A stretch of 64,000 bases of DNA, taken from assembly GCA_030262725.1 (NCBI GenBank), contig JAJSZS010000003.1, forward strand, positions 1 to 64,000, written 5' to 3'. This DNA comes from Candidatus Desulfofervidus auxilii (GTDB lineage: Bacteria > Desulfobacterota > Desulfofervidia > Desulfofervidales > Desulfofervidaceae). The notes under the pieces are model-generated. The model saw only the letters and a program-made list of their open reading frames with translations, did no database searches and was not told the origin of the DNA. Numbering within the stretch: the stretch's first letter is position 1; every line of letters begins with the position of its first letter. Positions 11,832-26,268 of the stretch are shown in pieces. A program made the position numbers and the translations under genes.

Positions 11832-12946
11832 TTTTTACTTACCTCTATTTTGGCAAATATAGGAAAGGCAATACCATCATAAAATGTATCATCTTGTCCG
11901 ATTTTTCCTATAGCTATGAGTTTTCCGTAACTTTCTTTTTTAGATAAAAATGTAAATAAAGATCCCTCTTCAAAGCAGCGTATTAGTTTTTTAAAAATCC
12001 CTCGGTTATCATAGGAATACAAGGTATCTAATTTTGCTCTCAAGTTTAAAATATTCCATAAAGAAAGAGATAAATCTATCTCATCTTTTACAGGCACATA
12101 TCTTGAAAGTGTTATAAAAACATTAGGATTTTGAACAGCAGGCGGCTCATATTTTTCTATTTGAAACCTGAAGTGTCCTTTTCCTGCAGTTCTCTCTCCA
12201 CCTATGCCTGTATCGGCTAAAAATCGTAAAAGAGAATGTATAAACTCTTTGTCTTTTGTTTTTATAAGAAACCACAAACCACAACAGGTATGAAAAAATA
12301 TCTCTTTTCTGAAAAATAAAAATCCTTCACCTGTAGAAAAGGAAATCCTGTCAATTTGATTTTTTTGAATATCTATTTCCTTAAAAAGGTATTTATCTAT
12401 TAGCTCGCCCTCAGGGTCTATTTGCCTCCTTTCTTCAGTAGTAATCAAACAAAAACCGTATTTTTCTATATCTGTTTTTATGCTCCCTCTCTTTTTTAAC
12501 CAAAAACATATTTTAGAATACCCAAAGTTACCCTTTATCATTCCCCAAAAGATGTTTTCTGAGACATATCTAATTCTTTTAAAATCTTTTAATCTTTCAC
12601 TGATTCTCAAAAAAGCCAAGTTAAAGTTTAAAACTTCATCCTGTGTGATAATTTCTCCTATTCTCTTCTGTTTTTCTATTAGTTTTTTTCTTTCTTCATA
12701 ATCTGGATCAGGCAGAAGTGGTTTAGGAAAAAAATGAATTTTCCTATCGCTATTAAATACGCAAGGAAAACTAGAACTTAAAATAAATGGAGGAGAGTTT
12801 TCTATAAAGGCCGAAAGGGTCTCTTTAAGTCTTTTTTTGCCGTAGAGATGGAAAATTGCCCAGCAAAAGGCACCAAATAAGGTATCAGAAGCAGGCCATG
12901 TAGTAAAAGAAGACTTTGGGTATAAATAAACTGCATAAGTTTGCAT
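11822..12946 (-). CDS. csm4: Csm4 (Cas5-group RAMP)
   Basis: N-terminal YPKSSFTTWPASDTLFGAFCWA signature. Confidence 0.85.
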   Translation of the reverse strand: MQTYAVYLYPKSSFTTWPASDTLFGAFCWAIFHLYGKKRLKETLSAFIENSPPFILSSSFPCVFNSDRKIHFFPKPLLPDPDYEERKKLIEKQKRIGEIITQDEVLNFNLAFLRISERLKDFKRIRYVSENIFWGMIKGNFGYSKICFWLKKRGSIKTDIEKYGFCLITTEERRQIDPEGELIDKYLFKEIDIQKNQIDRISFSTGEGFLFFRKEIFFHTCCGLWFLIKTKDKEFIHSLLRFLADTGIGGERTAGKGHFRFQIEKYEPPAVQNPNVFITLSRYVPVKDEIDLSLSLWNILNLRAKLDTLYSYDNRGIFKKLIRCFEEGSLFTFLSKKESYGKLIAIGKIGQDDTFYDGIAFPIFAKIEVSKKCV

Positions 12947-12951
12947 AGAAA

Positions 12952-13905
12952 TTACTCCACATTAGGAAAATTCTCAATAATTTGTTTAACAGTAATTATT
13001 TCCCTCTCTATCTCACCTTTAATTGGATGAACAAATTTTTCTTTTATAGGCTGTATCTTATTCAGACTTTCTACAATTTCATCCTTACCATCTGTTTTTC
13101 CTGTTTGGTAATATTCTTTAGAATGAAACTCTATAAAGTTTTTATTTTTTTTATTTTCAAATATAAATTTTATCTTCCCATATCCTCTGCTTCCAGATCC
13201 CCCAAGGCTGCTATCTTCTAGAAGAAGCATAGCAGTGAAAACATCCTTTAAAAGCTTTTTATCTTCATTACGATAAATGTCAAAAATTATTTCTAACTGA
13301 AACTCTGATCCTGCAGGCACTCTTTCCATTGGACGGGGAGTAGCTTGAGAGGTAATCCGATCAATGGTATTTTCTGTCTTAATCTCTGTATATGTTGCTT
13401 CACCTAAAAGTGTTTGCCATAAATTTATAGTGTCATCTACAGGAAAAGCATCTCTTATTGTGATTCTAGTAGGCTGTGCCCCTGATGCAGTTGCAGATGT
13501 TCCAAAAATTAAACAAATTTCGCATTCGTTTATTAATTCTTTTAATTTTTTTTCAATTTCTTGCTTTTTTTCTTCTTCTTTTTCCTTATTTTTTGCTTGT
13601 TGATATTTTCTAAGCTCTGCCTTCAGTTGCTTAATTTCAGGATGGTTTTCACAAGAATGGGCAGGAAATTTATTTTTATCATCTGAATATACTTTTCCCA
13701 ATTTCCACTCTAAAAGACACCGCATCTTTCCCTTTAGAGAAGAACCAGGAATGTATGGATAACCAGTTAAGGGGTCTTTTATAACCACATTATCAACTCC
13801 ACCTATTTCTATTCCTTCTTGAGTACCGCCGATATGAAGACCTGTTTCAAGTCTGACAATACCCTTAATTAAGTATTTTCCTAAAAAGCTAAGTTCTTGT
13901 TGCAT
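12952..13905 (-). CDS. csm3: Csm3 (Cas7 backbone subunit) with a zinc-finger insertion
   Basis: GLHIGG and a GSSLKGKMR G-rich loop. CxxH...CEIC insertion. 317 aa. Confidence 0.85.
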   Translation of the reverse strand: MQQELSFLGKYLIKGIVRLETGLHIGGTQEGIEIGGVDNVVIKDPLTGYPYIPGSSLKGKMRCLLEWKLGKVYSDDKNKFPAHSCENHPEIKQLKAELRKYQQAKNKEKEEEKKQEIEKKLKELINECEICLIFGTSATASGAQPTRITIRDAFPVDDTINLWQTLLGEATYTEIKTENTIDRITSQATPRPMERVPAGSEFQLEIIFDIYRNEDKKLLKDVFTAMLLLEDSSLGGSGSRGYGKIKFIFENKKNKNFIEFHSKEYYQTGKTDGKDEIVESLNKIQPIKEKFVHPIKGEIEREIITVKQIIENFPNVE

Positions 13906-13907
13906 TT

Positions 13908-14339
13908 TTACCCTCCACGAGGATAATGATATTTATGATATGCTATAATTGCTTCCAAGAAATCAGCTAAGCGAAGAAAATCTTCATTTGTTTGGAGAAT
14001 TTCCTTACGTAAGCATATTTTTAATACTTTCTGATAGAATTCTTTTGGTATAAGTCCTCTTCCTACTGAATATACTAAAACAGGCAAAAGCTTAGCTACC
14101 TGTGCAAAATCAAATGGATCATTAGGTTTACGGCTTATCTTTCTAGAAATTGCTTTAATTTCGTTGAAAAATTTCCGCAATTGAGTCATTTTTAACTCTT
14201 TTGCATTTTGGACAATTTTATCTGCAAGTCCACCTTCGTCACAAAATTCTTTGTAGTCTAATTCTTTAAAAGAATGAAGCTCGCGTAAACGTTCTTCTAT
14301 TTCTTTAAAACCCTTCTTTTTTTTAGATTCTTCTTTCAT
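13908..14339 (-). CDS. csm2: Csm2 (Cas11 small subunit)
   Basis: 143-aa helical protein with the TQLRKFFNEIKAI motif. Position between cas10 and csm3. Confidence 0.75.
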   Translation of the reverse strand: MKEESKKKKGFKEIEERLRELHSFKELDYKEFCDEGGLADKIVQNAKELKMTQLRKFFNEIKAISRKISRKPNDPFDFAQVAKLLPVLVYSVGRGLIPKEFYQKVLKICLRKEILQTNEDFLRLADFLEAIIAYHKYHYPRGG

Positions 14340-14340
14340 A

Positions 14341-16848
14341 CTAACTCCCCCTTATCTTCAAGCTTACATAAGAAGTAATTATTCTCAAACTATTATTAAA
14401 AAACTTAGATATTTTCTCAACCAATTCAGCCTTAACCTCTTCATCTTTTATTCTTCTTACCACATTATAAAAAAAATATGGCACCCACATTAAAGTGGTT
14501 TCTTTTTCTAAATTATGCAGAAAATATATAAATCCACGCGGCATTTTTTCTTCTTTTATCCAAGAAATCATCTTTTCAGCAAAATTAAACACTTCTTTAA
14601 ATTCATTCCACTTTATAGTTCTATTAAATAAAGTTAATCTGTTTTTCTCATTGAACCCTTTAACTTCACAAGTTTTAGATCTTTCTAATGCTTGACCTGC
14701 TAAATGCACAAATCTCTGAATAGGAAAAAGAGGTTTTACAAAACATATCCCACCTGAAAGATGAAAGTTTTCGTTAAAAGAAGTATAAGCTGTAAAATCT
14801 TGTTGAATCTTGTAACTTAGCTCAATAATAGCATCCCAAGGGCCTATGATTAACAAATCATCTCCACCTGCATAAAGGATATAATAAAGACTTTCAAAAG
14901 CACCTTGCCAGTTTTTATTTTCTTTTACCCATTTTTCTGTTAGCTCTCTACAAATTACATTTAGCCATCCACCAAAAAACAAGTCTAAAATTGTGCTTAA
15001 AGTGGAAATCCTTGAAAAGGACATTTCTTCTTTTTTTAACCCTAACGCAAATATTGCTCCCAAATAATCAACATCCATTTTTAATACACCTAAATATTTT
15101 GCTCCTTTGTTTAACTCAGCTATTTCTTCAAAACTTAAAATATCTCCCTTTTTTACTTCTTCATCTTTTACATTTATTCCTTCCTTCAATACTTTGGGCA
15201 CAGCATTTGCGATAAACTTAAACCCAAAAGAGGTAGATTTACCCTTCTTTTTGAAGTCTAATAGATTTTCAGGGATAAAATCACTTTCAGGATTTAGTAC
15301 ATAAATAACTGCTTTTTGCTCATTATCTATACATGAACAAAATGCCTTTATCTCCTCCTCAGAAATCAAATACACATAAACACCTAATTTTTTAAAAGCA
15401 ACCTTTACGAGATGTTTCAAATTTTCCTTAAAAATTTCTTTAATTAGAATAGGTTTTCCATAAAGAAAAACGATATATTTTGTTTTAGGCAACTTATTTC
15501 CAATTTCCTCTTGTTTTTTACATTGAATACAACATATTTCATTATCTTTTATTTGAGAAACCAAACACACTCTACACACATTTAAAGGAACACTTTTTTC
15601 GGGTGTAAAAAAGTCACTGGTTTTTAATATCTCTAAAAATTTCTTATATTTTTGTTTTGCCAATGTATCTTCAAGTTTCTGATAAACAAAAGAAAGATCC
15701 AGAAAATCTTTTGGACATATTTCCACAGCTGCTATTTGAAGACTTAACTCTCCATTAAACTCCTCAAGAAGCCACTTATTTAGTTGAGACAATAAATTGG
15801 GAATTTTCTCTTCTGCGGTAATAGGCAAAAGCAAATCAAATCTTCCTCCACCACAAAAAAGAATATTGGCAACAGGAAGTTCAATTTCCCTTATAATCCA
15901 ATCAGCAATAACCTCTGTAAGAAGGGTTACAAAAAATGACCTTCCTCTAAGCCTTTTTGCTGTTTTTCTAGTATCTTTCTCAGGTTCAGGGCGGGTAATA
16001 GAATAAATAAATTTTTGGATACCTGCTATATCTCCTCTTAATAACAAAAATAAAGGTTTTTTAGTTATATCTAATGAATTAAACCTCCTTTCAAAATCTT
16101 CCTCTTTATAACTTTTAAGAATTTTCACTAATTCTTTCATTTCCTGTAAAGATAGGTCATTCTTAGAAAGCTTATTTAAACAAGCGGCAATTGCACATGT
16201 GATTTTGGAATGGTCAAACAAAGAAATATCAGGAATAGTTTGAGCGTCTTTTTCCCATGGAGTAGCTGAAGGAACAAATAAAACAAACTTTTTTAAAAGG
16301 TAATATAAAGTCACAAAATCACAATCTTGATATTTACTAAGTCGCTTAACACTCCCGAAAAATTCTTCCCAAGTAGTTTTATAAGCATCTTCTTCTACTT
16401 TTTCTTTCTCTGTAGGAAATAAAATTTCTTTTTTAATCTGCAAAGGATAGGGCTGATAATATTTTTCAGTAGGTGGGTTGGCATGAAGTTTAATTTTTGA
16501 AGTAATAGCAACTAAAGCAGCCTGTTTAGAAGAAATCCTTTCTCTCACTTCCTGCCTTCTCTCAATTGATGAAAGCTTATCTGCTATTTGCAAAATTAAC
16601 TCATCTTTAGTAGTAGGAATTTCATGGTGGTTTCTTACTAACTTCTTTATTTCTATCCATACTGTTTCTTCCCAGAAACTTTTAAGAGCTTTAATAAAAT
16701 GCTCTCCTACCTCCGCATGCGTTCCTAAAAACTCTTTACTTGCCCTTTGGGACAATTTTCCAATATCATGTAAAAGACTTGCTAATAAAATAATCCTTTC
16801 ATTTTTATCCATTTTCATTTTCCTTCCTTCAAACACCCACACGTCCAA
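14341..16848 (-). CDS. cas10: Cas10/Csm1 with intact HD nuclease and GGDD cyclase motifs
   Basis: N-terminal HD (LLHDIGK ... NHHE), a treble-clef zinc finger (CRVCLVSQIKDNEICCIQC), and a palm GGDD (YAGGDDLLIIG). The real start is probably an internal Met (MKMDKNE near 16812-16818). Confidence 0.9.
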   Translation of the reverse strand: MDVWVFEGRKMKMDKNERIILLASLLHDIGKLSQRASKEFLGTHAEVGEHFIKALKSFWEETVWIEIKKLVRNHHEIPTTKDELILQIADKLSSIERRQEVRERISSKQAALVAITSKIKLHANPPTEKYYQPYPLQIKKEILFPTEKEKVEEDAYKTTWEEFFGSVKRLSKYQDCDFVTLYYLLKKFVLFVPSATPWEKDAQTIPDISLFDHSKITCAIAACLNKLSKNDLSLQEMKELVKILKSYKEEDFERRFNSLDITKKPLFLLLRGDIAGIQKFIYSITRPEPEKDTRKTAKRLRGRSFFVTLLTEVIADWIIREIELPVANILFCGGGRFDLLLPITAEEKIPNLLSQLNKWLLEEFNGELSLQIAAVEICPKDFLDLSFVYQKLEDTLAKQKYKKFLEILKTSDFFTPEKSVPLNVCRVCLVSQIKDNEICCIQCKKQEEIGNKLPKTKYIVFLYGKPILIKEIFKENLKHLVKVAFKKLGVYVYLISEEEIKAFCSCIDNEQKAVIYVLNPESDFIPENLLDFKKKGKSTSFGFKFIANAVPKVLKEGINVKDEEVKKGDILSFEEIAELNKGAKYLGVLKMDVDYLGAIFALGLKKEEMSFSRISTLSTILDLFFGGWLNVICRELTEKWVKENKNWQGAFESLYYILYAGGDDLLIIGPWDAIIELSYKIQQDFTAYTSFNENFHLSGGICFVKPLFPIQRFVHLAGQALERSKTCEVKGFNEKNRLTLFNRTIKWNEFKEVFNFAEKMISWIKEEKMPRGFIYFLHNLEKETTLMWVPYFFYNVVRRIKDEEVKAELVEKISKFFNNSLRIITSYVSLKIRGS

Positions 16849-17630
16849 ATGCCTTTATTTGTAATTCTAATTCCGCCCCTTTCAACCTCCACTAATCCAT
16901 AATGCTCAAGGCGGTTAATTTCGTCTGCGTATTTGTTTATTAATTCTTCAAATTCCTTATTGCTTTTTGTTTTTTTGTCAGAAAGCATCTCTAAAACCTT
17001 TAATTCATTTCCCCTTGGTAGGTAAAAAAGTGGAGGAAATTTGATTATGTCTTTAAATTCTTCATGCATATAATAAACCTCACAACCTGTAAGAAAACCA
17101 GCAAGGGCACTAGTAATTACATGTGCCTTAAATCCACCTGTAGGATTAAAGACAACTTTATATCCTTCTTTTTTCTTTTTACTAGCAAGATAAATGAAAC
17201 GATCAAGAATGTCAGTTAGTCCTTTAATAAATTCATCTGCTGCTGTTTCTAAAGGTCTATCAAAATAGCCAGGAAATTGAGGTGAGCTATACATTGCGCA
17301 ATTTAACCCTTCTTTAAAATACTTTTCAATTGTTCTTAAGGCAATTTCATTAGAGGCAGTTTGTGTACCAGATAAATAGATTTCACAAGTTGCAGGATTG
17401 ATACTGTGCTTTTCACAATATTTTAAAAAAGAATTCAATTCAGCAGATCTTTCTCTAGGTTTTTCAGAAAGAAAATCATAAATCTTTTTAAAAAAAGATG
17501 AATCATTTATAACTTCTAACCATATTTCATCACCCATTCCTGCATTTTTTACCTTTGAATCATCTATGTTTTTTTGATAATTTGCAATAAGACTATTGCC
17601 TACAGTAATTAAATGAAACTCCTTTTTCAT
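16815..17630 (-). CDS. CARF-wHTH protein (Csa3-like putative cOA-responsive regulator)
   Basis: CARF motifs HLITVGNSLIANY and FNPTGGFKAHVITSALAGF. C-terminal wHTH-like segment (LKVLEMLSD...GLVEVERGGIRITNKG). No R-X4-6-H HEPN motif found. Confidence 0.7.
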   Translation of the reverse strand: MKKEFHLITVGNSLIANYQKNIDDSKVKNAGMGDEIWLEVINDSSFFKKIYDFLSEKPRERSAELNSFLKYCEKHSINPATCEIYLSGTQTASNEIALRTIEKYFKEGLNCAMYSSPQFPGYFDRPLETAADEFIKGLTDILDRFIYLASKKKKEGYKVVFNPTGGFKAHVITSALAGFLTGCEVYYMHEEFKDIIKFPPLFYLPRGNELKVLEMLSDKKTKSNKEFEELINKYADEINRLEHYGLVEVERGGIRITNKGIWTCGCLKEGK

Positions 17631-17955
17631 CCATCCTCAATTTACCTAAGTGCCGTTAAAATGTCAAGAAAATATTTAAAAGATTTTTTCTTGCCTTAAA
17701 ATAAAAATTATGCTATCAATTTGAAAAAATTAAGCTCTTTTGAAAACTGAATAGGATCTCCAATTTTGCGGAAACCTTCCCTATTGTTCTAAGTGCCCAA
17801 TTTTTTAAAGTGGTTCCCGAAAAAGAATTTTTCCCTTTTTAAGGGAGATTATTAAAATTACCTGCTTAAGAAAAGTTAATTTTGGGCAATCAATAAAGAG
17901 GTTTCCGAAAATGGGTTTCTAACTACCCAATATTTCAAACGCAAAAAACGGTGCG
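17631..17955 (+). promoter_or_regulatory. CRISPR leader / divergent promoter region containing a repeated GGTTTCCG motif and repeat-like fragments
   Basis: AT-rich 325-bp gap between the CARF gene and repeat 1. GCGGAAACC (17768-17776), GGTTCCCGAAAAAG (17812-17825), GGTTTCCGAAAA (17900-17911). GGGTTTCTAAC (17913-17923) is the reverse complement of the repeat 5' end. Confidence 0.5.
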
Positions 17956-18630
17956 GTTAGAAACCTTGACCCGATTTGAGGGGATTGCGACTAGGAATGC
18001 CGTCATTATCGTCATCGGTGGGCGGCTCACAAGTGTTAGAAACCTTGACCCGATTTGAGGGGATTGCGACATAATCGCATCCAGAACCACATCACCCGTA
18101 TCAAACAACTCTAAAAGTTAGAAACCTTGACCCGATTTGAGGGGATTGCGACCAATTTGATAGCGCCAGTATGGCGTTTTATCTAAAACATAATCAAAGT
18201 TAGAAACCTTGACCCGATTTGAGGGGATTGCGACTTTTTTCTTATTTCTTTTTCTTTCTCTTCCATTCTTTTTTCAGGTTAGAAACCTTGACCCGATTTG
18301 AGGGGATTGCGACAATGTCCTTTGCCCATGTTTAAAAACAATGAAATAAGTTAGAAACCTTGACCCGATTTGAGGGGATTGCGACAGAAAGAAAAGTAGG
18401 AAGCTTAACATAAAGAATCTCTACCCATTCTGTTAGAAACCTTGACCCGATTTGAGGGGATTGCGACTGCAATAAGAATCTGTGTAGTATCATCAACAAA
18501 CAAATTACCATGTTAGAAACCTTGACCCGATTTGAGGGGATTGCGATAGACAATTCGTTTGAACGTTTCAACGTTTACACGTTTGAATGTTTTCATTGAA
18601 AACCTTGACCCGATTTGAGGGATTGGAAAA
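17956..18630 (+). CRISPR. CRISPR array, 8 full repeats plus 1 degenerate terminal repeat. Repeat GTTAGAAACCTTGACCCGATTTGAGGGGATTGCGAC (36 bp).
   Basis: Exact repeats start at 17956, 18035, 18117, 18199, 18278, 18350, 18432 and 18512. The copy at 18512 has a final C>T change. The degenerate copy lies at about 18595-18630. Spacers are 43, 46, 46, 43, 36, 46, 44 and 47 bp. Degeneration at the right end implies the leader is on the left and transcription is on the plus strand. Confidence 0.95.
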
Positions 18631-18831: not shown

Positions 18832-19935
18832 TTACAATTTCTGATAGCAATTAAGAGCCTGTTTAATATCTTCTTTAAGACCCGGGATAAATTTGTAAGA
18901 AGCAAGATTATCTACATCTATCCATTTTATTACATCAAATTCTTCACTTTCTTCTTTAAGACAACTTTCATCAGTGGTAACACACAGAAAGCGTACACCC
19001 GGTATTGCGGGTCTACCGTTAGAAGAAAGTATAACATAAGAAGTAAAAGGTTTGAGCACTTTTACTTTTATCCCGAATTCTTCCCACATCTGTCTTCTCA
19101 CTGCTTCCTCAAAACTTTCTCCTATATGAACCTGCCCTCCACCACATTCCCAGAATAAGGGATAAATTTCCCTATCTCCTTTCCTTTTACCAGCTAGTAC
19201 AAAAAATTTATTCTGTTCTTTTTTGAAAACTATTCCAGCCACATGAACCTCTATTTTATGTTGGTATTCTTCTCTGCGGCGAGGATGTAACAAAGGAGGA
19301 TGGACATCACTATTATAAAGCACCGTAACAGTAGGCAAACCTTTAACCACAATTTGGTCTTTTTCAAAACCCATGTTTTTTAAATCTTTCTCTAAAAAAG
19401 GCATAGCTTCAATGTCAATAACTATTCCTTTAGGCCTAGCTGCATCGCAAAGGCGTGAAGCAAGATTTATAGGGTTACCAAAAAAATCATATTCAGAAGG
19501 GGTTATAAAAGCTTTTAAAATACCAAAAGAAATACCTATACCTGAATCTAACTTTTCTGCTTTACCTCCTGCTTCAGTTATGGGAATAATAACTTTTTCT
19601 TTAAATTCTTTTCTCCAATATGAAACTATTTTTGTGATTATATTTCTTATTTCATTTTTATGATTTTCTTTTAGTAAAGGAACAAATTTTTCTACTTCTT
19701 CATTTGAAGAAACTTTTCCTTTTATCTCTACAATACTTTTTATAAATAGCCCACCATCACCCAACCTTTTATAAACAAAGGGCTTATTACTACTTCCCAT
19801 TTCTTTCGCTTTTTCACTAAGAAATTTATAAAGAAGTTCAATTAAAACAGGCGCATAAGCCTCATTTTGTTTAGCCCAATTAGAAAAACCCCTTATATCA
19901 AAATTAACAACAATCCCTAAAACCCACATATTCAT
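18832..19935 (-). CDS. Class III nucleotidyl cyclase (CHD) fused to a C-terminal NUDIX hydrolase domain
   Basis: Cyclase motifs: FDIRGFS (metal Asp), KRLGDGG (second Asp), GNPINLASRLCDAA. Nudix box GGQVHIGESFEEAVRRQMWEEFGI, matching GX5EX7REUXEEXGU with RQ in place of RE. Confidence 0.8.
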   Translation of the reverse strand: MNMWVLGIVVNFDIRGFSNWAKQNEAYAPVLIELLYKFLSEKAKEMGSSNKPFVYKRLGDGGLFIKSIVEIKGKVSSNEEVEKFVPLLKENHKNEIRNIITKIVSYWRKEFKEKVIIPITEAGGKAEKLDSGIGISFGILKAFITPSEYDFFGNPINLASRLCDAARPKGIVIDIEAMPFLEKDLKNMGFEKDQIVVKGLPTVTVLYNSDVHPPLLHPRRREEYQHKIEVHVAGIVFKKEQNKFFVLAGKRKGDREIYPLFWECGGGQVHIGESFEEAVRRQMWEEFGIKVKVLKPFTSYVILSSNGRPAIPGVRFLCVTTDESCLKEESEEFDVIKWIDVDNLASYKFIPGLKEDIKQALNCYQKL

Positions 19936-20065
19936 CCCTCTATTTTTCTATTAACCCATTTATAACCTAATCTAGTGGAGAAAATATGTCAAGATAATTT
20001 TTTAAAAATAATCTGCTTCAAACCCAAATTTTAGGAGAAATGTTTTCATCAAGGAGGAATTTCAC

Positions 20066-20292
20066 TTATGCTACCTTTTCTAATTCACCCACTTCTTCTC
20101 TGGCAAGCATGGCAGCATATTTTACACAAGCCTGAATATCTTCTTTGGTTAAATCAGGATAATCATCAAGAATCTCATCAATGGTCGCTCCACTGCTAAA
20201 AGGTCAAGAATCAAATAAACTGGAATCCTTGTACCTTTTATACAAGGTGTACCATGTAATATTTCCTGGTTTACTACTATACGGTCAATCAT
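20066..20292 (-). pseudogene. DUF433-family small protein with a 1-nt frameshift near 20196
   Basis: Minus-strand translation gives MIDRIVVNQEILHGTPCIKGTRIPVYLILDLLAVE, then in another frame ATIDEILDDYPDLTKEDIQACVKYAAMLAREEVGELEKV. Both parts match the DUF433 consensus. Confidence 0.55.
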
Positions 20293-20394
20293 ATTTTTGA
20301 GCTCCTGACACTCATTCTTACAAAACATTTATTATAAAATCACCTAACTCACAATACTGCTCTTCATTTTTAACAATTCTATAAAAGGTAAAAA

Positions 20395-20415
20395 CCGATT
20401 TGAGGGGATTATGAC
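20395..20415 (+). repeat. Orphan partial CRISPR repeat (3' 21 nt, 2 mismatches: CCGATTTGAGGGGATTATGAC)
   Basis: Matches the 3' half of the array repeat in the same orientation, about 1.8 kb right of the array. Confidence 0.55.
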
Positions 20416-20557
20416 ATTAAGATATGCATTGTGGAAGCAATCCGGGCTGCTCTAGCCTTTGCCGCCGAAGTCTCAAAGCAGATGTTGTCAAAAAGCCGTA
20501 TAATGGAATTTATAGCTGATGAAAGTATAGATAAACAAATTGTAAACTGCTTCAACA

Positions 20558-20677
20558 ATTTTATCAAACGTGGGAAGGAAATGTGCCTCTTAAATTTACG
20601 TCCCTTACATGGACTGCTTCAAACCTAAGACTTTTTAGATGTAATATATCTTCCTTTACCACTATGCGATCAATCAT
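20558..20677 (-). pseudogene. 5' fragment of a second DUF433 gene (first 13 codons, MIDRIVVKEDILH) plus a duplicated upstream segment
   Basis: Identical N-terminal peptide. About 65 bp of upstream sequence (20666-20730) is ~75% identical to 20281-20345. The reading frame diverges after codon 13 and stops after 39 codons. Confidence 0.4.
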
Positions 20678-20767
20678 GCTTTGAGCTTCTAATCACTTGT
20701 TTTTACAACATCTATCATAAAATTGCCTGATTGGTAGTTCTGCTAACTTGATACAAAAGTTTTCTTA

Positions 20768-21193
20768 TTAAAAATTCTCTATCCAAATGACATTTTTCGC
20801 CTTATTCTTTACAGTGTTAAAAAATTTTTTATCACCTGTGATTAAATTTATTTTTAATTTATTTGCTAAAGTCAAATAAGAAGCATCATAAACAGAAATG
20901 TTAAATTCCTTGGATATATCTAACAGTTCTTCCTTTAAAAAACTTAGATCATGTTTTTCTATATCCAAATTAAGTATTTTTTCTTGAATATCTTTTGCTT
21001 CATCAAAATTGATTCTTTTTCTTTTATAGGCTACAAAAACAGCATTTGAAATCTCATAATCTATAAGTGATGGTGCAAACAAATCTAACTTACCTAAAGA
21101 ATAAAGAAATAAAATTTTCTTTGCTTTTTCAAACCCTTCCTCATCTGGGAAATAACCTTTAAGTAAAGTACTAGCATCTATGACAATTTGCAT
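20768..21193 (-). CDS. vapC: PIN-domain toxin (VapC-like)
   Basis: 141 aa with a MQIVIDASTLL N-terminus (first PIN Asp) and the TGDKKF motif. Overlaps the upstream antitoxin gene. Confidence 0.8.
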   Translation of the reverse strand: MQIVIDASTLLKGYFPDEEGFEKAKKILFLYSLGKLDLFAPSLIDYEISNAVFVAYKRKRINFDEAKDIQEKILNLDIEKHDLSFLKEELLDISKEFNISVYDASYLTLANKLKINLITGDKKFFNTVKNKAKNVIWIENF

Positions 21194-21450
21194 CTTTCTT
21201 CTAATTCTTTCCTAGATGCTTCGTATAACTCTTTTGCTTTTACACCTTTTTTTTGCATTTTTTCCGCAATTTTAAGCATATTTACCCAGTCAGAAAGTCT
21301 TTTTAAATTTTTAAATTGCTCATAAGTAATAATTACTGCTACAGGTTTTCCCCGTTTGGTTATGATAACTTCTTTATCCTTTTTTAAAGATTGAATAATT
21401 TTAGTAAAATCTCTTTTACCTTCGGTAATGTTTACTTTTAACATGATCAC
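21178..21450 (-). CDS. Phd/YefM-type antitoxin
   Basis: 90 aa. VIITKRGKPVAVIITYEQFKNL resembles the YefM/Phd core. Position immediately upstream of the PIN toxin gene with a 16-nt overlap. Confidence 0.75.
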   Translation of the reverse strand: MIMLKVNITEGKRDFTKIIQSLKKDKEVIITKRGKPVAVIITYEQFKNLKRLSDWVNMLKIAEKMQKKGVKAKELYEASRKELEERCKLS

Positions 21451-21496
21451 CTCCTCTAGTTAGAATAAATGGACAGAAAGAATTTGTCAATTTTTA

Positions 21497-21534
21497 GTTA
21501 ATATGCATTTGAGCTAATTTGAGGAGATTGCGAC
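21497..21534 (+). repeat. Orphan degenerate CRISPR repeat (GTTAATATGCATTTGAGCTAATTTGAGGAGATTGCGAC)
   Basis: The 3' 18 nt match the array repeat at 17/18. It starts with GTTA like the repeat. Same orientation as the array. Lies in the vapB / SPFH-gene divergent promoter region. Confidence 0.5.
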
Positions 21535-21791
21535 AATTTACTGTTGCTATTCTAAAATAATTGGAGACAAGAATTAGATATGATATTATTTTACCTCATG
21601 TGAGCTATTTGGATATTTAGATGGTCAATCTATATGTTAAATCATTTATTGTCTTAGCTTGCTGTTGGATAAAGGTTTAAAAACGGGTAGCTAAAAAGTT
21701 AAGGACGTATAAAACTAGACCTCTTGGTTAATTTTTCTTGATTTTAAATATTTGACATGCTATTTTTTAGAAAAGTTTTCAGAGGATAACT

Positions 21792-22904
21792 ATGGGGAAA
21801 AACAACGTATTTTTCTTAGAGGTAATTGAGTGGTTTGATCCTACAGGCAAAGAAATTGTTCACCGGATTCCAGAAGAAGGATCAGGGGAAATTAAGCTTG
21901 GCGCTCAGTTAATTGTGCGAGACAATCAAGTTGCTGTCTTTTACTATAATGGGCGTGCTTATGACGCCATCGGTCCTGGGCGTCATACTTTATCCACAAA
22001 GAATATCCCTATCTTAACTAAAGTGTTAAGCCTGCCCTGGGGGTTTACAAGTCCCTTTCGGGCAGAAGTTTATTTTGTCAATATGAAAGTTTTTACTAAC
22101 CTGAAATGGGGAACAAGAGAACCTGTTGCTTTCAAAGACACAGAACTTGGGCTTGTGCGTCTTCGTACCTTTGGTATATTCAACATTCAGATATCCCAAC
22201 CAGTCTTGTTTATCAATAGTTTAGTAGGCACTCAAGGAGTCTACACTACCGAGGAAATAGAAAATTATCTCAGTCGAGTAATTGTTTCTCGCTTTAATGA
22301 CTATTTAGGTGAAAAACTAGATACAATTCTAAATTTACCAAGCAGGTATGACGAATTGTCACAAGGATTGCAGGAAAGATTAAAAGAGGATTTCTCACGT
22401 TATGGAATCCGCCTAGCTGGGCTTTATATCAATTCTATTACCCCACCTCCTGAAGTACAACAAGCCATTGATGACAGAGGACGTTTGGCTGTATTGGGAG
22501 ATTTGGATAGATTTATAAAAATGAAAGCAGGAATGGCAATGGAAGCCGCTGCTGAAGCTGGAGGAACCGCAGAAGGAGGTCTTGGGCTAGGGTTGGGATT
22601 AATGCTTCCGGGTTTTTTGATGGGAGCAATACAGGGTAAAACACAGACCACTTCACCTAATTGCCCTGAATGTCATCAGCCTGTACCTCAGGATGCTAGG
22701 TTTTGCCCTTTTTGTGGACATCAGTTAGTTATTATTCATAAATGTCAACATTGTGGTAAAAATTTACCTCCTAAAGCTGTTTTCTGCCCCCGTTGTGGTG
22801 CTCCTGTTGCTTCAAAACCTCATTCCATTAAGTGTCCTCATTGTGGAGCTGAAAATTTACCAGAAGCCATCTTTTGTAATTTCTGTGGTGAAAAATTAAA
22901 GTAA
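21792..22904 (+). CDS. SPFH/Band-7-like domain protein (PF13421-like, YdjI-like) with C-terminal tandem zinc ribbons
   Basis: N-terminus [60 protein letters not shown]. Gly-rich linker. Four C..C...C..C zinc-ribbon units at the C-terminus. Confidence 0.6.
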
Positions 22905-24226
22905 TGCAAACATGGCATATTCAAACACGCTGTCCTCAATGTGGAGCTCCGGTCTCTCTTACTGAAACGCAACGAGTGCTTCATTGTGAGTATTGTAAGA
23001 CAAGACTTTATTTACTACCTAAGGGTTTTCAGTGTTATCTTTTACCACCAAAAAAGCATAAAGATGAAATTCTTTTTATTCCCTTCTGGCGCATCAAAGG
23101 AATGAGCTTTGTTTGTAAAATGCCTTCTAAAATAGAAGCCAAAGTAATTGACAAAACCACTATTGCTCTGGATTTCCCTCTAGGTTTTACTTCTTTAGGT
23201 ATACGTCCTCAGGCAATAAACCTCGAATTTGCAGATGTAAAAAGAGGAATTTTTTTATCACCTCAGCTTAGTTTTAAAGAAGCATTACAAAAAATAAAAA
23301 CACGCTCAAAAAGTAATGCATTTCGTCTTTCTCATAGCAAAATGTCTTGTAATTATAAACAAAACATTCTAGCAATTTTGGGGAATGAAGAACATCCTTC
23401 TGTTACAGTTATTTTTCACTCTTTTATTGGTGAGGTATGGAGTCTTATTTATTTCCCTATTTTTATTGAGGAAAGCAGACAAAAAATTATTTTAAAAGAT
23501 GGACTGTCTAGGCAAAATATTGGGGATTTAACCTTAAAAGAATGGGAACAATTCAAAAAAAAGAAGGTTACTAGATTGCCTGCATGGCAATTTCTGCCCC
23601 TTATTTGTCCCCATTGTGGCTGGGACATCCCTTGCGATAAAGAAGCGTGGGCAGTATTCTGCCCCAATTGTAACCGAGGTTGGGGAGTTTTAAAAAACAA
23701 ATTTGTTCCTTTGCACTATAAGGTGGCTAAAACTGAAGGAAAAGATATATTTTACCTACCTTTTTGGCAAATTCGTGCTACTGCTTCTGCTCTTTCTTTA
23801 CATACCTATGCAGACTTGATTCGTTTTGCAAATTTGTCGAAAGTGATAAAAAGTAAACACCGAAAAATTCCTTTTTATTTTTATATCCCTGCCTTTAAAC
23901 TTAATCCTCATCAATTTTTAAAAATAGCCAAAACTCTTACACTAAACCAACCAGACTATGTTTATTTTTCTCAACCTGTTCCTAATGCCCATCCTGTAAT
24001 TTTACCACCAACAGAGGCATTAGAAGCGATAAAATTGGTAATGGCAGATATAGCTGTACCAAAGCGATATTTTTTCCCTCGACTGAAAGAAATAGAACCT
24101 AAAGTTACTCAAATTATCTTACTCTTTTTGCCTTTTGTTAAAAAAGGTATTGAATTAATCTTAGCTAATAAAGATATTAATTTGGCCATTCCTGTAAATG
24201 CTTTAAAATGGGGAAGTTTTTTATAA
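22904..24226 (+). CDS. Zinc-ribbon-containing protein of unknown function (YdjG-like partner of the SPFH protein?)
   Basis: CPQCGAPV...CEYCKTRLY and CPHCGWDIPCDKEAWAVFCPNCNRGW zinc ribbons. Start codon overlaps the upstream stop (ATGA-type coupling). Confidence 0.4.
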   Translation: MQTWHIQTRCPQCGAPVSLTETQRVLHCEYCKTRLYLLPKGFQCYLLPPKKHKDEILFIPFWRIKGMSFVCKMPSKIEAKVIDKTTIALDFPLGFTSLGIRPQAINLEFADVKRGIFLSPQLSFKEALQKIKTRSKSNAFRLSHSKMSCNYKQNILAILGNEEHPSVTVIFHSFIGEVWSLIYFPIFIEESRQKIILKDGLSRQNIGDLTLKEWEQFKKKKVTRLPAWQFLPLICPHCGWDIPCDKEAWAVFCPNCNRGWGVLKNKFVPLHYKVAKTEGKDIFYLPFWQIRATASALSLHTYADLIRFANLSKVIKSKHRKIPFYFYIPAFKLNPHQFLKIAKTLTLNQPDYVYFSQPVPNAHPVILPPTEALEAIKLVMADIAVPKRYFFPRLKEIEPKVTQIILLFLPFVKKGIELILANKDINLAIPVNALKWGSFL

Positions 24227-24354
24227 ATTAGTTCAGTTGTGAAAATCAAATTTATTGATCTTTCTCTATTCGATTTCTACTTTGAGCGGTTTATTATCAC
24301 ACCGTAACCCAATTTTTGAAAGATCAGAGCCAACATTAATTGACAAAAAAATAA

Positions 24355-25353
24355 TTGTTTTGCAGAATAATCAAATTGAAGGAAATGGCTATGCGTCAAA
24401 AATGTATTTTGGTTGTTTTTTTAATTTTTTGCTTTTCTAATGTGCTATATGCTGGCGGAAAGATTAAGTTAAAAGTATTTCATGCAGGAAGCTTATCTGT
24501 ACCTTTTGCCAAATTAGAGTCTGTTTTTGAAAATAAATATCCTCAAATTGATGTAAGGCGTGAAGCAAGTGGTAGTGTGCAGGCAGTAAGAAAAGTAACA
24601 GATTTAGGCAAAGCATGTGATGTGATAGCGGTGGCTGATTATGAAATTATTCCTAAAATGATGTTTCCCTATTATGCTGATTATGTTAAGCTTTTTGCAA
24701 GAAATGAGATTGTTCTCTGTTATACAGGAAAGTCTCGGTGTAAGGAAAAGATAAATAGCAAAAACTGGTATAAAATTTTATCTAAACCAGATGTAAAATG
24801 GGGTTTTTCTAACCCTAATGACGATCCCTGTGGCTATCGTACCCTTATGACTATAGCCTTGGCCTCCATTTATTATAAAAAACCAGATTTATTTATTTCT
24901 TTATTAAAAAATTTTCCTATTATTTATAAAAGTGACCAAAATAATATTTTTATTGAATTAAAAAAGGATTTACAGACAAAAAAAGGCATTTTTATTCGCT
25001 CTAAGTCAGTAGAATTAATTGGCCTTCTTGAAAGTGGAGCAATTGATTATGCATTTGAGTATAAAAGTGTAGCAAAGCAACATAAACTTTTTTATATAGA
25101 TTTACCAAAGGAAATTAATCTTGGTGATTTCTCTTATAAAGATTTCTATGCAAAAGTAAGGATAAAATTAAAAACAGGTATTATTATAAAGGCAAAACCT
25201 ATTATCTATGGCATAACTGTTTTAAAAAATGCCATTCATCCTGAAGAGGCAAGATTATGGGAGATGTTTGTTACAGGAAATGATGGAATAAAGATTTTAA
25301 AAGAGTGTTTTCAGATACCTATATTCCCAACTAAAGAAATCAGATATAAATGA
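24355..25353 (+). CDS. Molybdate/tungstate-type ABC transporter periplasmic substrate-binding protein (ModA/WtpA family)
   Basis: Signal peptide, then KVFHAGSLSVPF ... SGSVQAV ... NPNDDPCGYRT. Followed by the permease gene. Confidence 0.7.
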   Translation: MFCRIIKLKEMAMRQKCILVVFLIFCFSNVLYAGGKIKLKVFHAGSLSVPFAKLESVFENKYPQIDVRREASGSVQAVRKVTDLGKACDVIAVADYEIIPKMMFPYYADYVKLFARNEIVLCYTGKSRCKEKINSKNWYKILSKPDVKWGFSNPNDDPCGYRTLMTIALASIYYKKPDLFISLLKNFPIIYKSDQNNIFIELKKDLQTKKGIFIRSKSVELIGLLESGAIDYAFEYKSVAKQHKLFYIDLPKEINLGDFSYKDFYAKVRIKLKTGIIIKAKPIIYGITVLKNAIHPEEARLWEMFVTGNDGIKILKECFQIPIFPTKEIRYK

Positions 25354-26117
25354 TAAGGCTCTTTTATTTCTTTTTAGCTATTTTCTGTGTGATTTTTATT
25401 GTCTTTCCCATTATGCATCTTTTTATTTCTCTTACAGTTAATGAATTTATAAAGGCGATTTATGATCGTGAAGTATGGCAGGCTATTTTTACCTCTTTTA
25501 TTGGAGCAAGTTTATCTACATTTTTTGGATGCTTAACTGGCATTCCCTTTGCTTATATTTTAAGTCGATATGATTTTAAGGGGAAAAAAATCTTAGAAAG
25601 TATAGCCAGTTTGCCAGTTGTAATCCCTCATGTTGCTGTAGGTATTATCTTAATCTCTTTACTTAGTGAGAAAAGTTTTTGGGGACATTTTTTTTCTTAT
25701 TTTAATTTAAGCTTTATAGATACAATTTATGGAATTGTTATAGCAATGGCTTTTGTAAGCATTTCTTATATCATTACCTCTGCCTTAATAGGCTTTGAAA
25801 GTGTTGATAGAGAGTTAGAAATGGTCTCAAGAACTTTAGGAGCAACTGCATTTTACACATTCTGGCATATCACTTTTCCCTTAGCATTGCCTGCTATAAT
25901 TAAAGGAGCTATCCTTGCCTTTGCAAGGGCAATAAGTGAAGTAGGGGCACTGCTTATTCTTGCCTATTTTCCTAAAACAGCACCAATTATTATGTATGAA
26001 AGGTTTGAACAATATGGCCTTAAAGCTGCACATCCTGTTACTGTTTTAGTAGTATTTTTTTCATTAATAATTTTCTTTGTACTTTTATATTTTTCAAAAC
26101 GCCATGCTTTCCGTTAA
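25350..26117 (+). CDS. ABC transporter permease (ModB/WtpB-like)
   Basis: Six predicted transmembrane segments and an EAA-like loop (ISEVGALLILAYFPKTAPII). Confidence 0.8.
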   Translation: MIRLFYFFLAIFCVIFIVFPIMHLFISLTVNEFIKAIYDREVWQAIFTSFIGASLSTFFGCLTGIPFAYILSRYDFKGKKILESIASLPVVIPHVAVGIILISLLSEKSFWGHFFSYFNLSFIDTIYGIVIAMAFVSISYIITSALIGFESVDRELEMVSRTLGATAFYTFWHITFPLALPAIIKGAILAFARAISEVGALLILAYFPKTAPIIMYERFEQYGLKAAHPVTVLVVFFSLIIFFVLLYFSKRHAFR

Positions 26118-26268
26118 TTTTAAAAAAACATTACCTAATTTTTGCTTAGATATAGCTTTTGAGATACCAAAACATAGTTATAGTTTTATCTTAGGGTCAA
26201 GTGGGGCAGGAAAAAGTCTTACTTTAAAGATTATTGCAGGTTTGGATGATAAGTTACCATTTTGTTAA
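26104..26268 (+). pseudogene. ABC transporter ATPase, truncated about 40 aa after Walker A
   Basis: MLSVNFKK...ILGSSGAGKSLTLKIIAGLDDKLPFC then stop. Only about 110 bp remain before the convergent ruvB stop, so the ABC signature, Walker B and H-loop cannot be present. Confidence 0.7.

What the first reader, a model, noticed from the sequence alone, without database searches (positions are those of the whole stretch)
20395..21534. Two orphan degenerate CRISPR repeats 1.8-2.9 kb right of the array, in the array's orientation, inside a toxin-antitoxin and DUF433 islet
CCGATTTGAGGGGATTATGAC (20395-20415) and GTTA...ATTTGAGGAGATTGCGAC (21497-21534) keep the repeat 3' half, including the hairpin half and the 8-nt tag region, but lose the 5' half. 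The first is followed by an unusually GC-rich ~45-nt patch (20431-20475, GCAATCCGGGCTGCTCTAGCCTTTGCCGCCGAAG) in an AT-rich genome. The second lies in the divergent promoter region of vapB and the SPFH gene. One possibility is that these are relics of a once longer array that was split by insertion of the cyclase-NUDIX, DUF433 and VapBC cargo. The other is that they are crRNA-like regulatory elements, analogous to the CreA/CreTA class, which use degenerate repeats to direct Cas complexes to repress a toxin promoter.
Basis: partly seen in the sequence, partly recalled or inferred. Interest (0 to 1): 0.65.

Follow-up and report, generated by a model that had tools for sequence, protein, structure and literature searches.

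The report
Decayed CRISPR repeat scraps beside array
The two stray CRISPR-repeat fragments are real, but comparison with closely related strains shows they are leftover scars of array rearrangement at recombination breakpoints rather than regulatory RNAs, which is an ordinary and already described situation for type III CRISPR loci.

Summary
Both orphan repeat fragments are real. Positions 20395-20415 match the repeat's 3' part at 19/21. Positions 21509-21534 match at 22/26, with a weak GTTA start at 21497. Both lie on the array's strand, and about 0.01 such matches are expected by chance.

They sit right of a type III-A (Csm) locus in a Candidatus Desulfofervidus auxilii genome. The "GC-rich patch" after orphan 1 is the C-terminal remnant of a DUF433 antitoxin gene, followed by a DUF5615 start.

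In three related contigs, an intact array, its trailer and a DUF433(-DUF5615) module lie in the same order and orientation. Orphan 1 is therefore most likely an array-tail repeat fused to that module by a deletion.

Six contigs from closely related strains (about 98-99% identical flanks) lack orphan 1. They carry a 1.54-kb microhomology deletion that removed it.

Four of those contigs cover the orphan 2 site. All four keep only the first ~25 nt of the repeat and replace the 3' part, including the 8-nt tag.

Neither orphan has a partner repeat, an unusual target match in the window, or positional conservation. Orphan 2 has also lost the repeat's small hairpin.

Verdict: these are inert relics at recombination junctions. 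The crRNA-like regulator idea is not supported.

The parts
17660..17955 (+). CRISPR leader
   Evidence: AT-rich region between the crn start (17630) and the first repeat. It is 67-72% similar to leaders in L082 and L088, and shares short motifs by eye with the L028 leader.
17956..18630 (+). CRISPR array: 8 good repeats plus 1 degenerate terminal repeat (18596-18630)
   Evidence: The repeat ends in ATTGCGAC, the 8-nt tag region.
18832..19935 (-). Cyclase-NUDIX fusion gene, intact in this window
   Evidence: Pfam NUDIX plus a weak Guanylate_cyc hit. Only its 3' 383 nt survive in six related contigs.
19215..20754 (.). Segment absent from six related-strain contigs (microhomology deletion). It contains orphan 1.
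   Evidence: related contigs join window 19214 to 20755 across a shared TACAAAA.
20060..20328 (-). DUF433 pseudogene A (frameshifted)
   Evidence: Pfam DUF433 E=1.3e-11 for the N-terminal ORF. The C-terminal half is in another frame.
20395..20415 (+). Orphan 1: 3' 21 nt of a repeat (19/21); tag mutated to ATTATGAC
20416..20433 (+). 18-nt stretch between orphan 1 and the DUF433 remnant, probably spacer or trailer remnant
   Evidence: No homology to any fetched locus. The shared ATTAA with the L089 array end is too short to count.
20431..20550 (+). DUF433 C-terminal remnant (the 'GC-rich patch') followed by the first ~14-16 codons of DUF5615
   Evidence: 87% identical to L082 1998-2059 over 62 nt (97% over its first 32 nt) and 85% to L088. 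The L082 remnant hits Pfam DUF433 at E=3.2e-8. The L088 continuation hits DUF5615 at E=5.6e-4, below the curated cut-off.
20564..20677 (-). Fusion scrap: 13 N-terminal codons matching the start of DUF433 pseudogene A, joined to 24 codons that I read as a middle part of DUF5615
   Evidence: Translation MIDRIVVKEDILH|LKSLRFEAVHVRDVNLRGTFPSHV*. A 44-nt stretch is 80% identical to the start of pseudogene A (D1). The DUF5615 reading of the second part rests on my own knowledge of the family and was not tested.
20768..21450 (-). Phd/YefM antitoxin (21178-21450) and PIN toxin (20768-21193)
   Evidence: Pfam. The same PIN protein occurs in seven contigs.
21497..21534 (+). Orphan 2: full-length decayed repeat (22/26 over 21509-21534); tag ATTGCGAC intact; CCC/GGG stem lost
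21523..21625 (+). Window-specific allele to the right of the breakpoint inside orphan 2
   Evidence: In L088, L089, L090 and L092 this is replaced by a small membrane ORF or its deletion remnants. It matches nothing in any other fetched locus.

Best explanation
Both elements are non-functional relics of CRISPR repeats, left at illegitimate or repeat-mediated recombination junctions. The surrounding stretch is very plastic and mixes CRISPR arrays, toxin-antitoxin modules and defence cargo.

**Orphan 1 (inferred history).** It is the 3' part of the last repeat of an array whose tail was followed, on the same strand, by a trailer and a DUF433-DUF5615 toxin-antitoxin pair. One deletion removed the trailer and most of DUF433, bringing the repeat to within 18 nt of the DUF433 C-terminus. 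Another event removed everything to the left of repeat position 16.

**Orphan 2 (inferred history).** It is a decayed whole repeat lying on a breakpoint. Sequence to its right has been swapped between strains, with the exchange point inside or just left of the repeat.

**Function.** Neither is expected to yield a working guide RNA. Their only likely 'activity' is as substrates and by-products of recombination.

**Shown:** sequence similarity above chance; the junction positions; absence or truncation in near-identical strains; lack of a partner repeat; lack of any unusual match inside the window.
**Inferred:** the order of events, and the absence of transcription or processing.
For: 1. The similarity to the repeat is real.
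2. In L082 (Cas10 92% identical), a contiguous mini-array is followed by a trailer and then a DUF433 remnant. The 3' part of that remnant is 87% identical over 62 nt to the patch that starts 16-19 nt after orphan 1, in the same orientation. L090 shows array -> trailer -> DUF433 with the window's own repeat. L088 and L089 show the same with an inserted gene. Pfam confirms DUF433, and points more weakly to DUF5615.
3. The region around orphan 1 holds three DUF433 fragments and two pieces read as DUF5615 on both strands, which marks it as a rearrangement zone.
4. Six contigs from six samples, about 98-99% identical in PIN-Phd and (where covered) in SPFH, join 19214 to 20755 through a 7-nt microhomology. 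They therefore lack orphan 1. They also truncate the cyclase-NUDIX gene, so the window state is the older one and orphan 1 is dispensable.
5. In the four of these contigs that cover the site, homology to the window stops at 21522, inside orphan 2. They read GTTAACATGCGTTGACCTAATTTGAC and then unrelated sequence, so the tag-bearing 3' end is not conserved.
6. In an 86%-identical SPFH relative (L076), the upstream region is a tRNA-Leu gene and an HD-domain-type gene, with no repeat-like sequence.
7. No significant second repeat lies downstream of either orphan.
8. The pseudo-spacers' best matches in the window score 11-14, against 9.5-15.5 for the eight real spacers.
9. The repeat's 3-bp CCC/GGG stem is reduced to 2 bp in orphan 1 and abolished, without compensation, in orphan 2.
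10. A systematic survey found standalone repeats and mini-arrays next to type III arrays in 10-14% of loci. They showed no positional conservation and no targets, and the authors concluded they are degraded, non-functional repeats (10.1101/2023.03.03.530964).
11. A solitary full-length repeat with an array-type trailer lies 240 kb from the nearest array found on the same contig in a Desulfofervidaceae genome (L044). Such relics recur in this lineage.
Against: - Orphan 2 keeps a perfect 8-nt tag (ATTGCGAC). Type III crRNA 3' ends are trimmed rather than set by a second repeat, so a single repeat could in principle give a loadable guide.
- A + strand promoter-like site (21438-21466) lies upstream of orphan 2. 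However, promoter-like sites are no more frequent in this region than in shuffles.
- Targets elsewhere in the genome could not be searched.
- No expression data were available.
- The 5' ~25 nt of orphan 2 are present in both alleles. That could reflect constraint, or simply shared ancestry.
Confidence: 0.85

Rival explanations
1. One or both orphans are crRNA-like regulatory guides (CreA, CreR or crlRNA type). They would be transcribed, cut by Cas6 8 nt before the repeat end, loaded into the Csm complex, and used to repress a toxin or defence gene.
For: - They lie on the array's strand beside toxin-antitoxin genes, and orphan 2 has an intact tag.
- crRNA-like regulators that target toxin or cargo promoters are known in type I and V-A systems.
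Against: - Near-identical strains lack orphan 1 and lack the tag end of orphan 2, while keeping the same PIN protein and a near-identical Phd antitoxin.
- No partner repeat was found.
- The pseudo-spacers have no unusual complementarity in the window. Their best hits are in the same sense as the genes they fall in, not antisense.
- The stem is lost in orphan 2, and the 5' half, which I would expect Cas6 to need for a weakly structured repeat (my own knowledge), is missing in orphan 1.
- The only effector found is RNA-targeting type III-A, and no cas6 was found among the ORFs scanned.
- The neighbouring toxins (PIN, DUF5615) are protein toxins from families with protein antitoxins.
- The survey found no functional type III cases.
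Confidence: 0.05
2. The repeat-derived sequence has been co-opted as ordinary promoter or operator DNA. For example, orphan 2's 5' part could be upstream promoter sequence of the Phd-PIN operon. Orphan 1's mutated tag could supply a -10-like CATAAT on the minus strand for DUF433 pseudogene A.
For: - A minus-strand TTGACA-17-TATTCT site (21490-21462) lies directly next to orphan 2.
- A minus-strand TCCACA-16-CATAAT site (20435-20408) overlaps orphan 1.
- The 5' 25 nt of orphan 2 are retained in both alleles.
Against: - Promoter-like matches are at the shuffle expectation: 18 found against 16.2 expected.
- The gene downstream of orphan 1 is a pseudogene.
- The retained 5' part differs at 4-5 of ~26 positions between alleles, while the flanks differ by about 1.3%.
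Confidence: 0.05
3. The orphans are solitary repeat units brought in by a mobile element (RNA anti-CRISPR or Racr type), acting as decoys for Cas proteins.
For: Solitary repeats on viruses and plasmids can inhibit CRISPR-Cas (PMC10651486). The orphans lie among toxin-antitoxin genes, which often travel on mobile elements.
Against: - No integrase or other mobile-element hallmark gene turned up among the ORFs scanned.
- The scan of viral contigs gave only four isolated matches. Their 5' halves match the repeat at only 5-9 of 18 positions.
- Both copies are truncated or structurally broken.
- The flanks are homologous to array tails in related strains.
Confidence: 0.02
4. The similarity to the repeat is chance.
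For: The genome is AT-rich, so short matches are common. Two weaker repeat-like hits (around 3577 and around 58763) score at chance level.
Against: About 0.01 such matches are expected per window. Scores of 17 and 18 compare with a shuffle maximum of 13. Both lie on the array's strand within 3 kb of it.
Confidence: 0.01

Closest known systems
Degraded standalone repeats or mini-arrays flanking type III CRISPR loci (Shmakov et al. 2023, 10.1101/2023.03.03.530964)
   Same: Repeat-like sequences lie close to the array, outside the cas operon. They are not positionally conserved in close relatives, have no detectable target, and are partly degraded.
   Different: Here the breakpoints can be read directly from strain comparison: one at a DUF433 remnant, one inside the repeat.
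CreTA / CreA, CreR and other crRNA-like regulators of type I and V-A systems (PMC8501985, PMC9458426, 10.1101/2023.03.10.532045)
   Same: Degenerate repeats outside the array, on its strand, near toxin genes.
   Different: - Those have (usually) two flanking degenerate repeats.
- Their pseudo-spacer pairs partially with a promoter next to a PAM.
- They rely on a DNA-binding effector and are conserved across related loci.
- None of this holds here.
Degenerate terminal repeat and repeat-mediated spacer deletion or array recombination
   Same: Repeats at array ends decay, and repeats act as recombination substrates. The window's own terminal repeat (18596-18630) is degenerate, and related strains carry a leader plus a single such repeat.
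   Different: The orphans are separated from the array by 1.8-2.9 kb of cargo genes instead of sitting at its end.
Solitary repeat units / RNA anti-CRISPRs on mobile elements (PMC10651486)
   Same: Single repeat copies outside an array.
   Different: Those are intact, expressed and carried by viruses or plasmids. These are chromosomal and truncated, and no viral counterpart was found.

Membership tests
Relic (degraded, non-functional) CRISPR repeats | Similarity to the local array repeat beyond chance | tested here: met
   2 mismatches in 19, about 0.01 expected; scores 17 and 18 against a shuffle maximum of 13.
Relic (degraded, non-functional) CRISPR repeats | Truncated or structurally decayed compared with array repeats | tested here: met
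   Orphan 1 lacks the 5' 15 nt (5/15 matches) and has 2 tag mutations. Orphan 2 has lost the CCC/GGG stem and carries a 2-nt insertion.
Relic (degraded, non-functional) CRISPR repeats | Not conserved in position or sequence among close relatives | tested here: met
   Orphan 1 is absent in six contigs. Orphan 2's 3' part is replaced in four. An 86% SPFH relative has no repeat-like sequence.
Relic (degraded, non-functional) CRISPR repeats | Flanks traceable to array context or recombination junctions | tested here: met
   The repeat -> DUF433 adjacency is shared with the array tails of L082, L090, L088 and L089. There is a breakpoint at 21522 and a microhomology deletion.
Relic (degraded, non-functional) CRISPR repeats | No transcription or processing into guide RNA | not testable with these tools
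   No RNA data were available.
CreA / CreR / crlRNA regulatory mini-arrays | Pseudo-spacer flanked by degenerate repeats (usually two) | tested here: not met
   The best downstream repeat-like match for orphan 2 is reached by 192 of 2000 shuffles. Orphan 1 has none.
CreA / CreR / crlRNA regulatory mini-arrays | Pseudo-spacer partially complementary to the promoter of a nearby toxin, cas or cargo gene | tested here: not met
   Best matches within the 64-kb window are no better than those of real spacers, and none falls at a neighbouring promoter. The rest of the genome was not searchable.
CreA / CreR / crlRNA regulatory mini-arrays | Positional conservation across related loci | tested here: not met
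CreA / CreR / crlRNA regulatory mini-arrays | Associated effector binds DNA (Cascade, Cas12a, Cas9) so that it can repress transcription | tested here: not met
   Only type III-A genes (cas10/csm1-csm5, crn, cas1, cas2) are present.
CreA / CreR / crlRNA regulatory mini-arrays | Adjacent small RNA toxin (creT), or a regulated gene that lacks its own antitoxin | tested here: inconclusive
   The neighbours are a Phd-PIN pair and DUF433/DUF5615 debris, from families with protein antitoxins. A small RNA toxin cannot be excluded from sequence alone.
Solitary repeat units / Racr | Carried by a virus, plasmid or integrated mobile element | tested here: not met
   The viral scan gave only isolated matches whose 5' halves resemble the repeat poorly. 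No mobile-element gene appeared among the ORFs scanned.

The most novel reading that the evidence does not exclude
Orphan 2 keeps a perfect AUUGCGAC tag. It could be transcribed from the SPFH-proximal intergenic region and cut by a Cas6 encoded elsewhere. Because type III crRNAs need no downstream repeat, it could then be loaded into the Csm complex as a strain-specific guide or decoy acting on a target outside this window. That would be a first functional crRNA-like regulator for a type III system.
Probability: 0.03. Interest if true: 0.6.

Novelty: already known. Interest (0 to 1): 0.13.

Why it matters
The value here is mainly as a negative result.

- It removes a tempting CreTA-like interpretation. 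A stray repeat next to toxin-antitoxin genes is not by itself evidence of a regulatory guide, particularly in type III loci.
- The strain comparison gives a clear, small-scale picture of how arrays, toxin-antitoxin pairs and defence cargo are shuffled by microhomology deletions and repeat-associated exchanges in Candidatus Desulfofervidus.
- That picture is an illustration of known processes, not a new mechanism.

Tried and rejected
- **Cas10 scan of genome contigs:** found no relative.
- **Repeat-pattern scan of genome contigs:** I estimate that about 140 single matches would arise by chance in a collection this size, and most of the 74 stretches were such singles. The scan did identify the repeat family in Desulfobacterota and the solitary repeat in L044.
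- **Third decayed repeat at 21597-21624:** I suspected one, which would have given a repeat-spacer-repeat mini-array. It is not significant against orphan 2 (192 of 2000 shuffles) or against the consensus.
- **DUF433-derived sequence upstream of orphan 1:** MAFFT hinted at this, which would have meant a repeat fragment inserted into DUF433. It is not significant (51 of 500 shuffles).
- **16-nt inverted match between orphan 2's pseudo-spacer and the cyclase-NUDIX gene (I19), and a 14-nt match in csm4:** both are same-sense relative to the mRNA and at chance level.
- **ATTAA shared by the sequence after orphan 1 and the L089 array end:** too short to mean anything.
- **Rfam:** only a tRNA.
- **Cyclase-NUDIX homologues:** they lie in other defence islands, not beside CRISPR arrays.
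- **Viral contigs:** only isolated matches with poor 5'-half similarity.
- **cas6:** none found among the cas-locus ORFs and ten further mid-sized ORFs scanned.
Full report
**1. Setting**

The window carries a type III-A CRISPR-Cas locus on the minus strand:

| Gene | Coordinates |
|---|---|
| two cas2 | 5207-5775 |
| cas1 | 5772-6758 |
| AEP-primase/TPR protein | 6760-8472 |
| CARF fragment and a Schlafen/AlbA_2 protein | 8969-10609 |
| csm5 | 10611-11831 |
| csm4 | 11822-12946 |
| csm3 | 12952-13905 |
| csm2 | 13908-14339 |
| cas10 | 14341-16848 |
| CARF ring-nuclease-like gene (crn) | 16815-17630 |

A leader (about 17660-17955) and a + strand array (17956-18630) follow. The array has eight good copies of GTTAGAAACCTTGACCCGATTTGAGGGGATTGCGAC and one degenerate terminal copy.

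To the right of the array lie:
- a cyclase-NUDIX gene (18832-19935, minus strand);
- a frameshifted DUF433 pseudogene (20060-20328, minus strand);
- scrambled scraps of DUF433, and pieces I read as DUF5615 (20431-20677);
- a Phd/YefM-PIN pair (20768-21450, minus strand);
- an SPFH gene (21792-22904, + strand).

A source names the identical SPFH protein as coming from a Candidatus Desulfofervidus auxilii MAG. No cas6 was found among the cas-locus ORFs or ten other mid-sized ORFs scanned.

**2.

Searching the 19-nt 3' core of the repeat with up to three mismatches returns the array copies plus exactly two others. These are 20397-20415 and 21516-21534, each with two mismatches, both on the + strand. 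About 0.01 such matches are expected by chance.

Local alignment to the whole repeat scores 17 and 18. The best score in ten shuffled 64-kb sequences was 13.

- Orphan 1 matches 19/21 over 20395-20415. It has no similarity in the 15 positions before that (5/15).
- Orphan 2 matches 22/26 over 21509-21534 and begins with GTTA at 21497. It is therefore a whole repeat that has decayed and gained 2 nt, not a bare 3' half.

Two further weak hits, near 3577 and near 58763, are at chance level.

**3. The GC-rich patch is gene debris**

The patch is 60% GC, against 31.7% for the window. It translates as EAIRAALAFAAEVSKQ...

Its DNA is 87% identical over 62 nt (97% over the first 32 nt) to L082 1998-2059, and 85% identical to a copy in L088. 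The longer L082 remnant hits Pfam DUF433 at profile positions 26-56 with E=3.2e-8.

The ORF that follows in L088 (MEFIADESIDKQIV...) hits DUF5615 at E=5.6e-4, below that family's curated cut-off. The window keeps the same start at 20503.

**4. Where orphan 1 comes from**

L082 is a metagenome contig whose Cas10 is 92% identical to the window's. In it, a leader is followed by three repeats of a variant sequence, the last of them degenerate. A trailer comes next, then the DUF433 remnant, then crn-cas10.

L090 has the window's own repeat type. Its last repeat is followed by a trailer with the same AGTGATTAGTGACTAG-like motif, and then by a nearly complete DUF433 start. L088 and L089 show the same arrangement, with an extra gene inserted between array and DUF433.

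So 'array tail -> trailer -> DUF433 (-> DUF5615)', all on one strand, is a recurring unit in this lineage. The window has 'repeat 3' part -> 18 nt -> DUF433 C-terminus -> DUF5615 start' in the same order and orientation. Homology to the relatives begins at about 20431-20434.

The simplest reading is that orphan 1 is the tail repeat of such a unit. One deletion would have removed the trailer and the DUF433 N-terminal two-thirds. Another event would have removed the repeat's 5' part and everything to its left. This history is inferred, not shown.

The window copy is only 85% identical to the L088 copy. The L082 and L088 copies are 96% identical to each other. The window copy is therefore probably a separate, paralogous unit.

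I also tested whether DUF433-like sequence continues upstream of orphan 1. It does not, beyond chance.

**5. Orphan 1 is dispensable**

A look-up with the exact PIN protein returned seven contigs. One of them, L091, is the same Logan contig as L001 and is 100% identical to the window over 20755-26244. The other six (L088, L089, L090, L092, L093, L094) come from six different samples.

These six are 98.6-98.9% identical to the window across PIN-Phd. The four that reach SPFH are 98.2-99.3% identical there.

All six join window position 19214 directly to 20755 across a shared TACAAAA. This removes:
- the 5' two-thirds of the cyclase-NUDIX gene;
- DUF433 pseudogene A;
- orphan 1;
- the DUF433/DUF5615 scraps.

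The cyclase-NUDIX gene is full length in the window, and its homologues are full length. The window therefore shows the older state, and the six contigs carry a deletion. Losing orphan 1 did not prevent these strains from keeping the same toxin-antitoxin pair. Some of them also carry arrays of the same repeat with up to 20 copies.

**6. Orphan 2 sits on a breakpoint**

Four of the six contigs cover the site: L088, L089, L090 and L092. In all four, homology to the window stops at 21522.

- The four contigs read GTTAACATGCGTTGACCTAATTTGAC, then unrelated sequence. That sequence encodes a 126-aa ORF that looks like a small membrane protein. It is intact in L088 and internally deleted in the other three.
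- The window continues with GGAGATTGCGAC plus about 90 nt, which match nothing else that I fetched.
- Homology resumes at about 21626-21663.

Within the shared repeat-like part, the two alleles differ at 4-5 of about 26 positions. The adjacent flank differs by about 1.3%. This suggests the exchange point lies at or just left of the repeat.

The tag-bearing end, which is the part a guide RNA would need, is therefore not conserved. The truncated allele is also the commoner one among the sampled contigs.

In L076, a more distant relative with 86% SPFH identity, the region upstream of SPFH holds a tRNA-Leu(CAA) gene and what looks like an HD-domain gene. It has no repeat-like sequence. Similarity to the window ends about 60 nt before the SPFH start codon.

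**7. Tests of the regulatory-guide idea**

- **No partner repeat.** The best candidate after orphan 2 (21597-21617) is matched or beaten by 192 of 2000 shuffles. Nothing follows orphan 1.
- **No unusual target.** The 50 nt after each orphan find matches in the window scoring 11-14. The eight real spacers score 9.5-15.5. The longest matches are in the same sense as the genes they hit, so a + strand RNA could not pair with those mRNAs.
- **Structure is not preserved.** The repeat is weakly structured, with only a 3-bp CCC/GGG stem. Orphan 1 keeps 2 bp. Orphan 2 loses the stem with no compensating change.
- **Promoters are uninformative.** Promoter-like hexamers occur near both orphans, but no more often than in shuffles: 18 found against 16.2 expected.
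- **The effector and the toxins do not fit.** The effector here targets RNA, whereas known crRNA-like regulators work by DNA binding at promoters. The nearby toxins are protein toxins from families with protein antitoxins.

**8. Comparison with what is known**

Regulatory crRNA-like elements (CreA, CreR, crlRNAs) are established for type I and V-A systems.

The same systematic survey found standalone repeats and mini-arrays beside type III arrays in 10-14% of loci. It found no positional conservation, no enriched Cas10 clades and no targets. The authors concluded that these are degraded, non-functional repeats (10.1101/2023.03.03.530964). The present case fits that description on every feature I could test.

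RNA anti-CRISPR solitary repeats are carried by mobile elements (PMC10651486). A scan of viral contigs for this repeat gave only four isolated matches, whose 5' halves match the repeat at 5-9 of 18 positions.

A solitary full-length repeat with an array-type trailer also occurs 240 kb from the nearest array found on the same contig in a Desulfofervidaceae genome (L044). Such relics recur in this family.

**9. Verdict**

The best explanation is inert relics at recombination junctions (confidence 0.85).

The crRNA-like reading is not supported (about 0.05).

What cannot be excluded without RNA data and the whole genome is that orphan 2, with its intact tag, yields a strain-specific guide-like RNA (about 0.03).

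Novelty: already known. Interest: low.

Noticed in passing
window 6760-8472 (-), next to cas1 5772-6758 and two tandem cas2 genes 5207-5775; L006 6871-7941: A 570-aa protein with TPR repeats and an archaeo-eukaryotic primase domain (Pfam AEP-TOTE, E=2.4e-12) lies directly upstream of cas1. A 25%-identical homologue lies next to an array of at least 68 repeats of the same family in a Desulfobacteraceae MAG. It may be a primase-like accessory of the adaptation module.
   Followed up: partly
window 18832-19935 (-); L085-L087: The cyclase-NUDIX fusion next to the array is rare: only 6 homologues, all at 51% identity or less, in a 5.8-billion-protein search. One of them, found on three contigs, sits beside AAA_15/AAA_21 ATPase genes in what look like defence islands, not beside CRISPR arrays.
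   Followed up: partly
L082 1654-2056; L090 (reverse complement) 1037-1314; L088 (reverse complement) 3159-4500; window 20395-20550: A DUF433-DUF5615 toxin-antitoxin module repeatedly lies just downstream of a CRISPR array trailer on the same strand. The trailers share an AGTGATTAGTGACTAG-like motif. This may be a block that duplicates as a unit, or a stabilising association.
   Followed up: partly
L044 1300-1353 (- strand), contig JALWFG010000011.1 at about 241.3 kb: A solitary full-length repeat (1 mismatch from that genome's array consensus) lies 240 kb from the nearest array found on the same contig. It carries the same trailer motif as a regular array (L028). By eye, it abuts what looks like a truncated translation-factor gene. 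This is another array relic in the family.
   Followed up: partly
L076 516-602 and window 21730-21791: In the closest SPFH relative outside the species (86% identity), a tRNA-Leu(CAA) gene and what looks like an HD-domain gene lie upstream of SPFH. In the window, the stretch between sbcCD (945-5214) and SPFH is filled by about 16.5 kb of CRISPR-Cas, cyclase-NUDIX and toxin-antitoxin genes, which suggests a genomic island.
   Followed up: partly
L082 245-2090: In a strain with 92%-identical Cas10, the crn-cas10 operon is preceded by a different mini-array. Its repeat is GTTAGAAAAACTGACCCGCTAAGGAGGGGATTGAGAC, it points toward crn, and it lies next to an ORF that by eye looks like another RAMP-type gene. 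Leader and array orientation relative to the cas genes is therefore inverted compared with the window.
   Followed up: partly
L088 (reverse complement) 5197-5458; also L089, L090, L093: Several strains carry a leader followed by a single degenerate repeat (GTCAGAGACTATGACCCGATTTGAGGGGATTGGAAA) and the window's trailer. This is an 'empty' version of the window's array.
   Followed up: partly
window 18548-18595: The last spacer is internally repetitive (GTTTGAACGTTTCAACGTTTACACGTTTGAATG) and partly self-complementary, unlike the other spacers.
   Followed up: no
window 8969-10609 (-): A short CARF-like fragment, a 111-aa ORF with no family match and a Schlafen/AlbA_2 protein sit between csm5 and the primase-like gene. 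No cas6 was found among the ORFs scanned in the window.
   Followed up: partly
window 26244 onward versus L001 5491-6655: A contig 100% identical to the window from 20755 to 26244 then diverges into nucleotidyltransferase-type genes (NTP_transf_2/Polbeta). This is a second strain-variable junction.
   Followed up: no
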